A DNA stretch of 25,119 nt. Source: a virus. Its lineage: Duplodnaviria > Caudoviricetes. The notes beneath the pieces are model-generated. The model was not told where the DNA came from. It saw only the letters and a list, made by a program, of their open reading frames with translations, and did not search any database. A program made the translations under genes and the position numbers. Where the stretch lies: the IMG/VR virus record IMGVR_UViG_3300032303_000331, positions 1-25,119 of that record; one strand, written 5' to 3'. This document shows positions 18,700-23,675 of this stretch, piece after piece (positions within the stretch are counted from its first letter, which is position 1; each line of letters begins with the position of its first letter).

Positions 18700-18732
18700 T
18701 TTGGATTGTATTGTGCATATTGTGTATATTTG
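18700..18732 (+). promoter_or_regulatory. Bacteroidota-type sigma70 promoter (-33 TTTG / -7 TAnnTTTG) for the early module
   Basis: TTTG at 18700-18703, 21-nt spacer, TATATTTG at 18725-18732, upstream of ATG 18754. Confidence 0.7.
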
Positions 18733-20715: not shown

Positions 20716-21147
20716 ATGAATGAAGAACTTAAAAACGAATTGGTGCAATGTTATAAAAACAGTTTATCAAGCTTAAAAATGATTCATAAAACGTTAGTAA
20801 GTGCGAAAGTTATAACAGAAGATTTTGCAGTTAGTAAAGGCGCAACAGACATTAAACCGCACAGATTGATTGAATTAGTACAGGACGTATTTGAAGCAGA
20901 CGTTTTGGCTAAGAATAGGAAACAAGGTACAATCTTTGCGCGTAAGGCAAGCGCATATATTTTAAGGAAATTTACACAATTGTCTTTGAACGAAATTGCA
21001 CCTTTAATTGGGGTCGGTGACCATACAACAGTTATTTACAATATTCAAACTGCTTCAGATTTAATTGACACAGAAGATTGGTACAAAGAAAAAATTGACC
21101 AAATTGAAGAAGATATTGAAAGTTTTAATAACTTTGTAAGGAAATAA
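20716..21147 (+). CDS. Protein with DnaA C-terminal (domain IV)-like HTH
   Basis: ARKASAYILRKFTQLSLNEIAPLIGVGDHTTVIY resembles the DnaA domain IV signature; no AAA+ domain. Confidence 0.75.
   Translation: MNEELKNELVQCYKNSLSSLKMIHKTLVSAKVITEDFAVSKGATDIKPHRLIELVQDVFEADVLAKNRKQGTIFARKASAYILRKFTQLSLNEIAPLIGVGDHTTVIYNIQTASDLIDTEDWYKEKIDQIEEDIESFNNFVRK
21129..21136 (+). promoter_or_regulatory. Putative Bacteroidota -7 promoter box for the replication operon
   Basis: TAACTTTG matches TAnnTTTG; ATTG lies about 22 nt upstream; just 5' of the structured leader. Confidence 0.5.
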
Positions 21148-21152
21148 GTAAA

Positions 21153-21240
21153 TGCGTTATGCAACAACGCAGTATTAAATATATTGGGTCAAGGGTTTTA
21201 CAGGTAGTTGCATTGCCTGTTTGCCTGCGACCCTTTTTTT
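21153..21240 (+). ncRNA. Candidate cis-regulatory structured RNA (kissing-loop pseudoknot, terminator-like 3' end)
   Basis: Hairpin TGCGTT-ATGCAAC-AACGCA and hairpin ACAGGTA-GTTGCAT-TGCCTGT have exactly complementary 7-nt loops; outer stem GGGTC/GACCC is followed by T7. Confidence 0.6.
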
Positions 21241-21243
21241 ATT

Positions 21244-21939
21244 ATGGCAATATTTAGAAAAATACACGTCAGCTTTTGGAAGGACGAATTCATTGAAAGT
21301 CTGACACCTGAACAGAAGTTTTTTTATTTGTATTTAATGACAAATGACCGGACAACGCAATGCGGCATTTATGAAATTACAATAAAACAAATGTGTTATG
21401 ATACCGGGTATAATGAAGACACAATAAAAAAGCTAATTGAATTATTTACAAAATGTGGCAAAATTCAGTATTCTTTGGCAACAAAAGAAATTGCAATGAA
21501 GAATTGGCTGAAATACAATGATTCAACTTCACCAAAGGTAAAATCCTGTATAAACAAAGAACTTCTGAAGGTAAAAGATAGAGTATTGATACAGTATGCA
21601 TACAGTATGGATACACATACGCAAGAAGAAGAAGAAGAAGAACAAGAAGAAGAAGAAGAACAAGAAAAAGAACAAATTGATAATAAAATTTTGTTTTTAG
21701 ATAAAATTGAACCTTTTAAGGGTTTATTGGGGGAATCATACCAAGAATTTATTGATTATTGGTGCGAATCTTCAAAAAGTGGTAAATTGCGTTACCAAGC
21801 AGAAAAATTTTTTGACGTAAAACGCCGGGTTAATACTTGGCTTCAAAACAAATTAAAGTATGGAAATACAAAAAATACTGACCCAACCGCTTCAAGTCGC
21901 AAAAGAATGCAAGACTTACAAAATTGGGTTAATAGCTAA
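21244..21939 (+). CDS. Phage replication initiator / replisome organiser (N-terminal wHTH)
   Basis: Start at ATG 21244 (MAIFRKIHVSFWKD...LTPEQKFFYLYLMTN...CGIYEI); poly-E linker; C-terminal FIDYW...RVNTW domain. Confidence 0.75.
   Translation: MAIFRKIHVSFWKDEFIESLTPEQKFFYLYLMTNDRTTQCGIYEITIKQMCYDTGYNEDTIKKLIELFTKCGKIQYSLATKEIAMKNWLKYNDSTSPKVKSCINKELLKVKDRVLIQYAYSMDTHTQEEEEEEQEEEEEQEKEQIDNKILFLDKIEPFKGLLGESYQEFIDYWCESSKSGKLRYQAEKFFDVKRRVNTWLQNKLKYGNTKNTDPTASSRKRMQDLQNWVNS
21577..21675. repeat. Putative replication origin: four 11-bp iterons plus a GAA-rich tract inside the initiator gene
   Basis: GATAGAGTATT / GATACAGTATG / CATACAGTATG / GATACACATAC in tandem (21577-21620), then (GAA)n/CAA repeats. 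Confidence 0.55.
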
Positions 21940-22603
21940 TGAAGACCTGCCAATTATTGAAGCTTTTAAAGGCGACAAATTAAACTTGGCTTCACCTGTA
22001 ATTATAAGGGAAAATTTAGCCTATATTTTTACATTAATAGGTTTAACCCGTTTACCTGACAAAATGGAATTGGAAGTTATTGAAGACTATATTCGTACAA
22101 CATATCCGTATTTTACGGTGCAGGAAATGCGAATTGCTTTTAAAATGGCAGTTCAAGGTCGTTTTGAGTGCAATACAGACCATTACGAAAAGTTTTCACC
22201 AAAGTATATATCCCAAATAATGAACGCCTACAAAGCCAAAGCAAACGAAATACGTAAGAATTTACCGCCGCCACCTGAAACACCTGTGAAACAATTAACA
22301 GACGAAGAAATTGTTGAATTTACAAAAAACGATTGGCTGACAGGTAAGCGTCAAGACTTCAACCGTGTTTTTAATGCTGACAAAGTATTTTCAATTCTTT
22401 TAAGACAGGGTAAATTGAAATTTACACCTGAACAGATATTGGAAACAATTAAGGTTGTACGTGAAGACAACTTATACAGACTTAACCGGTTGAATCCATT
22501 AGAAGCCAAAGAGTTTACAAAAAGGGTTAAAAATGAAGACTTTATTGAATCACAATGTAAAAAATTAGCATTAGTCAAATATTTTGAAAATTTATCAAAT
22601 TAA
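21860..22603 (+). CDS. Replication-associated protein (possible helicase loader)
   Basis: 247 aa overlapping the 3' end of the initiator; EMRIAFKMAVQG...HYEKFSPKYISQIMNAYK; occupies the position of lambda P. Confidence 0.5.
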   Translation: MEIQKILTQPLQVAKECKTYKIGLIANEDLPIIEAFKGDKLNLASPVIIRENLAYIFTLIGLTRLPDKMELEVIEDYIRTTYPYFTVQEMRIAFKMAVQGRFECNTDHYEKFSPKYISQIMNAYKAKANEIRKNLPPPPETPVKQLTDEEIVEFTKNDWLTGKRQDFNRVFNADKVFSILLRQGKLKFTPEQILETIKVVREDNLYRLNRLNPLEAKEFTKRVKNEDFIESQCKKLALVKYFENLSN

Positions 22604-22881: not shown

Positions 22882-23196
22882 ATGGACATATCCGCAAACG
22901 ACCTTACAAAATGGGCGAAGACAAACCTTGAATTAATTGGTTGGCGTTTAAATAGGGTTAACAATATACCATTTGCAAAACGAAAAGGTACAGTTCAAAA
23001 AGGTTGGGCGGACTTACAAGGTTATACTGAAAAAGGTGTTTATATAGCGGTTGAAGTTAAAAAGATAGGTGACAAATTAAGCAAAGAACAAAGGGAACGA
23101 TTAAAAGATATTTTTGAATGTGGGGGGATTGTCTATATTTGTACTGAAGTAGAAAACAAACCTGCTTTAATTGAATGGTCAAAAATAAAATTTTAG
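22882..23196 (+). CDS. VRR-NUC-like PD-(D/E)XK nuclease (possible Holliday junction resolvase)
   Basis: KGWADLQG...AVEVK...DKLSKEQ...GGIVYI. Confidence 0.75.
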   Translation: MDISANDLTKWAKTNLELIGWRLNRVNNIPFAKRKGTVQKGWADLQGYTEKGVYIAVEVKKIGDKLSKEQRERLKDIFECGGIVYICTEVENKPALIEWSKIKF

Positions 23197-23675
23197 CTGA
23201 ATTTTGGGACTTAAAAGAAGTCAACGAAGCATTTGGCAAAATGCAACCTGAAGAATTGCGGTATGACCTGAAGGCAGAAGTTTTTTTAGTTCTTTGTGAA
23301 ATGGACGAACAAAAGTTAATTGGACTGTACGAACGAAACGAATTAAGATTTTATATTGTACGTACAATGCTGAATATGATTAAAAGCGACAGAAGTACAT
23401 TTTATAAAAATTACAGAAACCATATTGAATTTGTGGCGGCTGATTTGAACAGGGAAATTAAACGTATAAATGACGAACCAACAGATTTGGTTGACAAATT
23501 AGAAAAGAATTTGGAAGGTTTACATTGGTACAATAAGGAAATATTAAAACTATATGCAATTGATTTTAAAAAGAATGCAAAAGAACTAAGCAGAAAAACA
23601 GGCATTCCATATATGTCAATTGTCAGAACTATAAATAAAACCAAAAAACAAATGAAACAAAACATACGCAAATGA
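23175..23675 (+). CDS. Sigma-70/ECF-like transcription factor
   Basis: DLKAEVFLVL (region 2-like), FYIVRTMLN, C-terminal HTH KELSRKTGIPYMSIVRTI (region 4-like). Confidence 0.65.
   Translation: MVKNKILAEFWDLKEVNEAFGKMQPEELRYDLKAEVFLVLCEMDEQKLIGLYERNELRFYIVRTMLNMIKSDRSTFYKNYRNHIEFVAADLNREIKRINDEPTDLVDKLEKNLEGLHWYNKEILKLYAIDFKKNAKELSRKTGIPYMSIVRTINKTKKQMKQNIRK

What the first reader, a model, noticed from the sequence alone, without database searches (positions are those of the whole stretch)
21129..21246. Kissing-loop RNA leader gating the replication initiator
Seen: just downstream of a TAACTTTG promoter box are hairpin 1, TGCGTT[ATGCAAC]AACGCA (21153-21171), and hairpin 2, ACAGGTA[GTTGCAT]TGCCTGT (21200-21220). 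Their 7-nt loops are exact reverse complements. Hairpin 2 sits on an outer stem (GGGTC 21186-21190 / GACCC 21229-21233, plus AGG/CCT) followed by seven Ts, and the initiator ATG follows 3 nt later (21244). Known: loop-loop pseudoknots control rep expression in IncI/IncB plasmids and occur in riboswitches. Inference: a cis-regulatory RNA (attenuator, antisense target or ligand/protein-sensing switch) controlling phage replication; it matches no RNA family I can name.
Basis: partly seen in the sequence, partly recalled or inferred. Interest (0 to 1): 0.8.

Follow-up and report, generated by a model that had tools for sequence, protein, structure and literature searches.

The report
Kissing-loop leader gating phage replication
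In front of the DNA-replication genes of many uncultured freshwater phages lies a short stretch encoding two hairpins whose seven-letter loops stay exactly complementary while their letters change from phage to phage; the loops are predicted to pair in the RNA and likely set how much transcription gets past a predicted terminator into those genes.

Summary
It reads: Bacteroidota-type promoter box, hairpin P1, a 14-nt linker, a 47-nt rod (P2/P3), a U tract, then the initiator AUG.

A covariance model without the loop-loop pairing found 120 distinct copies. In 117 the loops pair over at least 7 bases, across about 20 loop codes. Searches that left loops unspecified gave 59 of 59 and 26 of 26 complementary. 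G-U versus A-C counts favour sense-strand RNA. The leader precedes several unrelated initiator families, and five near-complete relatives lack integrases.

No antiterminator helix, third site, leader peptide or conserved antisense promoter was found. Best reading (inferred): an RNA-only attenuator in which the kiss opposes closing of the terminator base. Function and polarity are untested.

Rfam gave no hit. The 3' rod is probably already listed as anonymous candidate DNAVirus_187 (PMC10690425). The kiss was not found in nine literature searches. This scan noted similar kissing leaders before, on other DNA.

The parts
20716..21147 (+). Upstream gene with a DnaA C-terminal HTH domain; the promoter box lies in its last codons. 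Not constant across the family.
   Evidence: ORF; Pfam Bac_DnaA_C E 8.6e-12; other members have other upstream sequence
21129..21136 (+). Bacteroidota-type -7 promoter box (TAHHTTTG); transcript start predicted near 21141
   Evidence: Sequence; consensus and 5-nt spacing from passages of PMC6847099; 110 of 120 members against 11 of 115 controls
21153..21171 (+). Hairpin P1; loop L1 ATGCAAC at 21159-21165
   Evidence: all 5 modelled pairs show two-sided changes
21172..21185 (+). Single-stranded linker, 14 nt, A-rich then U-rich
   Evidence: 13-15 nt in 93 of 120 members; base frequencies
21186..21233 (+). Rod: P2a (21186-21190/21229-21233), internal loop, P2b (about 21192-21196/21223-21226, two registers possible), internal loop, P3; predicted terminator hairpin
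   Evidence: -24.0 kcal/mol; family mean -20.4; 47-48 nt in 96 of 120, two sides equal within 1 nt in 114 of 120; covariation
21200..21220 (+). Hairpin P3 at the rod tip; loop L3 GTTGCAT at 21207-21213, exact complement of L1
21234..21240 (+). U tract (7 T) directly after the rod, 3 nt before the start codon
   Evidence: At least 7 T in the 8 nt after P2 in 92 of 120; U-rich start region in 116 of 120 against 1 of 128 start regions of five phage stretches
21244..21939 (+). Replication initiator (replisome organiser / DnaD-like), 231 aa
   Evidence: PHROG 6251 E 1.6e-48, PHROG 1701 E 7e-34; annotated relatives in cultured phages
21579..21617 (+). Three 11-bp direct repeats followed by an A/G-rich run inside the initiator gene; likely iterons of the origin (inferred)
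   Evidence: Repeat families D1, D2 and palindrome I2
21860..22603 (+). Next gene, unknown function; by position a possible helicase loader (inferred)
   Evidence: ORF; PHROG 26016 unknown; Atlas gives no common family
23175..23675 (+). Sigma-factor-like gene further down the same strand; possible late activator (lead only)
   Evidence: Atlas look-alike clusters named sigma factor or carrying Sigma70_r4, score 0.97; no informative Pfam hit

Best explanation
This is a conserved leader of about 100 bases at the head of a phage replication operon, whose two complementary 7-nt loops are predicted to form a kissing pseudoknot that likely opposes closing of a predicted terminator, so that part of transcription would read through into the initiator gene. 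Shown: architecture, loop and stem covariation, sense-strand bias, position before unrelated initiators. Inferred sequence of events: RNA polymerase starts just after the -7 box and P1 folds. When P3 emerges, L3 can pair with the waiting L1 before the 3' strand of P2 exists. With the kiss in place, closing the 5-bp base of the rod stretches the 14-nt linker almost fully, so kiss and terminator base compete at similar energies. Kiss wins: read-through and a more open start region. P2a wins: release of a ~95-nt RNA at the U tract. The result would be a set, low dose of initiator and of the genes behind it, with no phage repressor or separate antisense gene needed.
For: Kiss real: 25 of 26 pairs change on both sides, 0 of 500 shuffles reach the covariation score (that alignment was picked for complementary loops, so its kiss figures are not independent). 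Independent tests: L1 unspecified, 108 of 120 loci complementary, and the 12 others look like chance pattern hits; central L1 letters free and L3 unspecified, 26 of 26; neither loop specified, 59 of 59 (two loop codes only, overlapping earlier loci). Model without the kiss: 117 of 120, cross-type control 4 of 462; 41 joint and no one-sided changes on a tree of the non-loop parts. Pairing stops at exactly 7 in 116 of 120, as a kiss would and strand invasion would not. RNA strand: G-U 57 vs A-C 3 in P3, 21 vs 1 in P2a. Terminator signature: rod -20.4 kcal/mol, U tract absent from other start regions, with no second promoter before the AUG, so expression needs read-through. No covarying antiterminator helix other than L1-L3. 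Geometry: full rod uses 86-95% of linker reach at 107-134 degrees, 45-50% with P2a open; outer 5 bp -8.8, 7-bp duplex -8.5 kcal/mol (angles from passages of PMC8457670). Contigs from RNA libraries of two studies bridge the U tract (may be DNA).
Against: No experiment and no read-level data show termination, the transcript start or the kiss. The geometry is a straight-rod estimate; bends at the internal loops would remove the strain, and conserved lengths fit a fully folded compact RNA equally well. The duplex energy is not a kissing-complex energy. 28 of 120 members have only 5-6 T after the stem and some have 2-4 other letters before the T run. The terminator predictor used in PMC10690425 did not call DNAVirus_187, the probable catalogue match of the rod, and the simple scan here did not call the + strand hairpin a terminator. 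P1 shows more A-C (12) than G-U (5) and P2b 50 against 45, so the strand bias rests on P3 and P2a. No regulatory input was identified.
Confidence: 0.45

Rival explanations
1. Kiss and full rod coexist in one compact fold. The kiss stabilises the terminator or the released ~95-nt RNA, so it acts as an OFF element or yields a stable small RNA, and read-through needs a protein antiterminator or leakiness.
For: All helices covary together; linker 13-15 nt and rod 47-48 nt are tightly kept; the linker has a conserved A-rich then U-rich pattern that could dock in a groove; the linker can just span the distance.
Against: It needs a nearly fully stretched linker along a symmetric, probably straight rod. 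No constant neighbouring gene that could be the antiterminator was seen: first genes and upstream sequence vary.
Confidence: 0.22
2. Translational or mRNA-stability control only: the rod ends 9-12 nt before the AUG and hinders ribosome loading in hosts that lack Shine-Dalgarno sequences; the kiss tunes this or shields the 5' end, with little termination.
For: Stem-to-AUG distance 9-12 nt in 112 of 120; Bacteroidota start regions are normally unstructured from -20 to +20 and favour A at -3 (passages of PMC6847099); A at -3 in 27 of 120 members against 76 of 128 control start regions; RNA-library contigs cross the U tract.
Against: A long U run right after a strong hairpin is the terminator pattern and is nearly unique to this site (116 of 120 vs 1 of 128). 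No third site near the start codon matches either loop.
Confidence: 0.13
3. A protein- or small-molecule-sensing switch in which the kissing fold is the binding site.
For: Pseudoknot plus terminator is a common riboswitch layout (established knowledge); a few positions are nearly fixed (U at loop position 2, the loop-closing pairs, linker A and U runs).
Against: Only 2 leader positions are invariant among 27 representatives, mean column identity 57%. The same loop code precedes unrelated initiators and near-identical initiators carry different codes, so the initiator is an unlikely ligand.
Confidence: 0.1
4. IncI-like antisense control: a promoter on the minus strand within the linker makes an RNA antisense to P1, whose loop equals L3 and competes for L1.
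For: The linker read backwards resembles the -7 box; TAnnTTTG is present there in 25 of 120 members, at a spacing that mirrors the sense promoter.
Against: Only 12 of 120 meet the refined TAHHTTTG consensus, against 108 of 120 for the sense box; the window itself lacks it; one subfamily replaces the A run; no antisense box downstream of the AUG (0-5 of about 120 per window).
Confidence: 0.07
5. A DNA-level element: inverted 7-bp protein sites, or hairpins with the same loop on opposite strands acting at an origin.
For: Complementary loops are also an inverted repeat in DNA, and the element lies about 350 bp from likely iterons.
Against: G-U far exceeds A-C in P3 and P2a; the rod is more stable on the sense strand in 98 of 120; promoter, U tract and AUG flank it in fixed order; loop code is uncoupled from initiator family.
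Confidence: 0.03

Closest known systems
DNAVirus_187, anonymous candidate structured RNA (PMC10690425, supplementary tables; rows read)
   Same: 49 nt, 122 sequences, 105 freshwater, predicted Bacteroidetes host, within 25 bp upstream of DUF1376 (54) and DUF4373 (36) genes. The rod here is 47-48 nt and precedes DUF1376-like and Lin1244/DUF4373-like initiators 38 to 25. Probably the 3' hairpin of this element.
   Different: 49 nt ending near the start codon cannot hold P1, so it would not include the kiss; the main text has no occurrence of 'kissing'. Identity is not proven: the alignments could not be read.
IncI-alpha ColIb-P9 repZ leader with Inc antisense RNA (passage of PMC8383071)
   Same: A loop-based pseudoknot upstream of a replication-initiator gene as the switch.
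   Different: There the pseudoknot activates translation and is blocked by a separate antisense RNA; it needs a leader peptide and pairs a loop with a single strand (these two points recalled). Here both partners are hairpin loops, a U tract follows, and no conserved antisense promoter or leader ORF was found.
Phage P4 immunity: CI RNA with seqA and seqC (passage of PMC4825925); c4 antisense RNA families in Rfam
   Same: An RNA from the leader itself, complementary to its own transcript, controls premature termination before replication genes.
   Different: P4 uses it in lysogeny and has two targets flanking CI. Here there is one complementary pair and no third site, no Rfam c4 match, and five near-complete relatives lack tyrosine integrases and resolvases.
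Antisense-driven attenuators of staphylococcal and streptococcal plasmid rep genes (passage of PMC8383071)
   Same: Terminator hairpin in the rep leader; dose control of the initiator.
   Different: They switch between two secondary structures on antisense binding; no covarying alternative helix exists here.
ColE1 RNA I/RNA II 7-bp kissing complex (passages of PMC8457670 and PMC4872101)
   Same: Two fully complementary 7-nt loops; pairing limited to the loops.
   Different: ColE1 pairs two molecules from opposite strands and controls primer formation; here both loops lie in one transcript about 46-48 nt apart.
HK022 put antiterminator RNA (passage of PMC8632103)
   Same: A promoter-proximal two-hairpin phage RNA; RNA-only antitermination is the proposed outcome.
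   Different: put acts by binding RNA polymerase on distant terminators; the passage describes no loop-loop pairing, and here the terminator-like hairpin is part of the element.

Membership tests
Any Rfam 15 family | Match at gathering score or a credible E-value | tested here: not met
   0 matches over the window; only two weak snoRNA hits outside the element at E up to 10; 20 related loci at E up to 1 gave two hits, neither on a leader
DNAVirus_187 (PMC10690425) | Length, habitat, host and downstream domains | tested here: met
DNAVirus_187 (PMC10690425) | Sequence match to its alignment or model | not testable with these tools
   The two zip supplements gave no text and one spreadsheet was not searched; six short motifs found nothing in the files searched
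IncI/IncB rep leader | Pseudoknot upstream of the rep gene | tested here: met
   Covariation; formation itself is predicted
IncI/IncB rep leader | Counter-transcribed antisense RNA over the pseudoknot loop | tested here: inconclusive
   Antisense box in 12 of 120 (strict) or 25 of 120 (loose); no stranded reads
IncI/IncB rep leader | Leader peptide coupled to rep (feature recalled) | tested here: not met
   27 of 120 leaders have no ATG and counts vary 0-4; P1 starts 2-5 nt after the promoter box in 64 of 110
P4 CI / c4 immunity | Two targets (upstream and downstream) complementary to the effector RNA | tested here: not met
   No positionally conserved extra site for either loop within 250 nt in 110 members
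P4 CI / c4 immunity | Temperate life style | tested here: inconclusive
   0 of 5 near-complete relatives carry PF00589 or PF00239; non-integrating carriage is not excluded
P4 CI / c4 immunity | Processed small RNA acting in trans | not testable with these tools
   Only assembled contigs were available
Plasmid antisense attenuators | Mutually exclusive terminator and antiterminator helices | tested here: not met
   Own-versus-cross duplex test on 24 representatives: only combinations holding L1 and L3 stand out
Intrinsic terminator | Stable hairpin followed at once by a U tract | tested here: met
   Rod -20.4 kcal/mol mean; at least 7 T in 8 nt in 92 of 120; not called by the simple scan
Intrinsic terminator | Transcript release at the U tract | not testable with these tools
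   No raw reads
ColE1-type 7-bp kissing complex (structural class) | Two 7-nt loops fully Watson-Crick complementary, stems kept | tested here: met
   770 of 770 loop pairs in the 110 members with two 7-nt loops; exactly 7 in 116 of 120
Riboswitch | Many invariant nucleotides forming a ligand pocket | tested here: not met
   2 invariant leader positions in 27 representatives
HK022 put | RNA polymerase binding and processive antitermination | not testable with these tools
   Needs in vitro transcription

The most novel reading that the evidence does not exclude
A self-targeting RNA timer with a 7-letter address. Released leader RNAs expose both loops; as they build up, their L3 captures L1 of new transcripts before the transcript's own L3 appears, forcing termination. 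Against it: loop positions change at about the rate of stem pairs, with no sign of faster diversification.
Probability: 0.18. Interest if true: 0.87.

Novelty: new variant of a known kind. Interest (0 to 1): 0.66.

Why it matters
RNA control of replication initiators is known from plasmids and from P4-type immunity, mostly with a separate antisense RNA. This is a compact, apparently self-contained version in abundant, probably lytic freshwater phages of Bacteroidota, kept while the initiator gene behind it is swapped among unrelated families. If the kiss tunes an intrinsic terminator through geometry, that is a way of attenuating without an alternative helix, which I did not find described in the searches run. 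The covariation is unusually clean, so compensatory-mutant tests are simple. The natural set of about 20 loop codes could serve as orthogonal RNA parts.

Tried and rejected
Rfam: no match. DNA similarity to cultured phages: none for the window's leader or a divergent member. Three annotated phage regions with related initiators gave no model match, so no cultured carrier was found. Host genomes: 0 of 151 in one family and 0 of 151 in the phylum sample, but only 27 candidates were scored per genome and there was no positive control, so this shows little. One of 5 genomes behind initiator hits had two copies, on short contigs that may be binned phage; that search missed the divergent copy found in locus L318. 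RNA evidence: only contigs were offered; in 8 of 24 listed runs laid, none covered P1, and contigs of two studies stop at 21097-21098, where strains diverge; neither was used as evidence. A third complementary site at the start codon (lead from e1-5851439): the window has a 6-bp match between the P3 3' strand and codons 1-3, but no conserved extra site exists. An 8-codon ORF over P1 (21152-21178) is not conserved. Linker length does not track rod length among 22 representatives (rho -0.10), which gives no support to a tuned ruler. Two patterns tried on held loci found 3 of 194 and 0 of 337 and were dropped. Initiator homologues without a model match at E below 0.01 in the fetched flank: 30 of 100 sources and 21 of 40; these include truncated contigs, non-Bacteroidota genes, mid-operon genes and other leader designs. 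Supplements of PMC5737381 could not be read; motifs described only there could bear on novelty.

Full report
Observation. The stretch folds at z = -3.1. A twin hairpin with complementary 7-nt loops appears in 2 of 200 shuffles of the window. The window holds one copy. The promoter box alone is at chance level.

Context. The window is a 25-kb virus record. The gene behind the leader is a replisome organiser / DnaD-like initiator (PHROG 6251, E 1.6e-48) with three 11-bp repeats inside it that are likely iterons. Further down the same strand lie an unknown gene, a VRR-NUC nuclease and a sigma-factor-like gene. Five relatives of 33-35 kb (97-100% complete) carry no tyrosine integrase or resolvase, and the two that were read out have nearly all genes on one strand. 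They are probably lytic. A Bacteroidota host is inferred from the promoter consensus (PMC6847099, passages) and from the closest cellular homologues of the initiator.

The family. I aligned the window with 26 representatives. These had been picked by a detector that required complementary loops, so the kiss figures are not independent, though the stem figures are: 25 of 26 pairs change on both sides and 0 of 500 shuffles reach the score. A covariance model that does not model the kiss was run on 100, 40 and 100 sources (the last covers 100 of the 120 pattern loci). Of 186 rows, 5 reverse-strand or partial rows were dropped, leaving 181 hits and 120 distinct leaders.

The kiss. In 117 of 120 the loops pair over at least 7 bases, in 116 over exactly 7. 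The other three are divergent, weakly scoring members whose loops the model cut short; by eye they pair over 7-8. Among 22 loop-1 strings (about 20 true codes), mismatched partners reach 7 in 4 of 462 trials. In the 110 members with two 7-nt loops all 770 pairs are Watson-Crick. On a rough tree from the non-loop parts, the seven pairs change 41 times, always on both sides, at rates like the stems. Three tests did not select for complementarity. With L1 unspecified, 108 of 120 loci have the complement upstream; the 12 others look like chance pattern hits, 11 of them unmatched by the model and one not scanned. With the middle of L1 free and L3 unspecified, 26 of 26. With neither loop specified, 59 of 59. 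The last two sets hold only two codes and overlap earlier loci.

RNA, not DNA. P3 has 57 G-U against 3 A-C and P2a 21 against 1; P1 (5 against 12) and P2b (45 against 50) show no such bias. The box precedes P1 in 110 of 120 against 11 of 115 control windows. The leader precedes DUF1376-like (38), PHROG 6251 (26), Lin1244/DUF4373-like (25) and a fourth initiator type (5), and 26 other first genes that include HTH_36 and DUF6291 proteins and HNH or GIY-YIG-like inserts. One loop code serves several initiator families, so the loops are not initiator sites. The element marks the head of the replication operon.

How it likely works. The rod averages -20.4 kcal/mol and is followed by at least 7 T in 8 nt in 92 of 120; the AUG comes 9-12 nt after the stem in 112 of 120. 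Such U-rich start regions occur in 116 of 120 members and in 1 of 128 start regions from the window and two relatives, so the U tract is not the ordinary ribosome-loading pattern. A terminator here means the initiator needs read-through. No alternative helix covaries, no third site is conserved and no leader ORF is constant. An antisense box inside the linker meets the strict consensus in 12 of 120, against 108 of 120 for the sense box. That leaves the kiss as the only conserved element that could act on the terminator. L1 is made about 47 nt before L3, so the kiss can form before the rod's 3' strand exists. Using the 107-134 degree angles reported for the ColE1 7-bp kiss (PMC8457670, passages), a straight full rod needs 86-95% of the linker's reach, and 45-50% with P2a open; the two states differ little in crude energy. 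I therefore commit, at 0.45, to the kiss opposing terminator closure. This step is inference from a back-of-envelope model; the opposite polarity (0.22), translational control (0.13), a factor-binding switch (0.10), antisense control (0.07) and a DNA role (0.03) remain. Against my reading: 28 of 120 U tracts are weak, two terminator predictors did not call the hairpin or its probable catalogue match, and linker length does not track rod length.

Expression. Lake metatranscriptomes hold parts of the region as contigs only. Two contigs from different studies bridge the U tract (21193-21317; 21178-21404). This fits read-through but may be DNA in the library.

What is known. Rfam has no match. Nine full-text searches (seven aimed at such an element or its catalogues, two at background) listed no paper describing it; the library lacks most subscription papers. 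In PMC10690425 (passages and supplementary rows read) candidate DNAVirus_187 is 49 nt, mostly freshwater, Bacteroidetes-hosted and upstream of DUF1376 and DUF4373 genes 54 to 36; it is probably the rod alone, but its alignment could not be read. PMC5737381 (passages) has no occurrence of 'kissing' in its main text and its supplements were unavailable. In PMC2864571 (passages with the motif table) I saw nothing that matches. By function the closest systems are the ColIb-P9 repZ pseudoknot and plasmid attenuators (PMC8383071, passages), P4 CI RNA (PMC4825925, one passage) and put (PMC8632103, passages); PMC4872101 (passages) covers kissing stability. It fails defining features of the first three and is not filed under them. 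Earlier notes of this scan describe similar kissing leaders on other DNA; none matched this sequence. They are leads, not support.

Verdict. A real, well-supported RNA element with an apparently undescribed 7-bp kiss, part of it probably catalogued anonymously. Its role as an attenuator is likely and its polarity is open. New variant of a known kind; interest 0.66.

Noticed in passing
window 21244-21939 and L031:692-1315: Initiators in this clade share the C-terminal part (about 72-80% identical) but carry unrelated N-terminal domains behind near-identical leaders, suggesting frequent swapping of the DNA-binding half.
   Followed up: partly
L027:707-1111, L141:876-1211, L132:554-1198, L138:772-1095: HNH (L027), weak GIY-YIG-like (L138) and unassigned genes have inserted between leader and initiator, taking over the leader's start codon position.
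   Followed up: partly
L029, L165, L171 (about 150 nt upstream of the initiator) and L167:845-960: Other leader designs with 8-10-nt complementary segments and longer spacers precede the same initiator family and are not matched by the model; possibly a wider superfamily.
   Followed up: no
window 21579-21676: Three 11-bp repeats centred on a near-palindrome, followed by a purine-only run encoding a glutamate tract of variable length: likely the replication origin.
   Followed up: no
window 23175-23675: Sigma-factor-like gene also seen in the two relatives read out; may drive late transcription, which would put lytic commitment under the same leader.
   Followed up: partly
window 18725-18732: A second -7 box in the intergenic gap before the early recombination genes, so upstream transcripts could also run into the leader and end at its U tract.
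   Followed up: no
L010:1501-2850: The initiator reads on into the next gene as one 450-aa frame; a fusion or an assembly error.
   Followed up: no
L334:878-4532: A relative carries a ParB-N, PAPS-reductase/DUF3440 and nuclease cluster before the terminase, resembling a DNA-modification module.
   Followed up: no
all members, both loops: Loops mostly read purine-U-N-N-N-A-N, so positions 2 and 6 can pair inside a free loop; U at position 2 of L1 never changed.
   Followed up: partly
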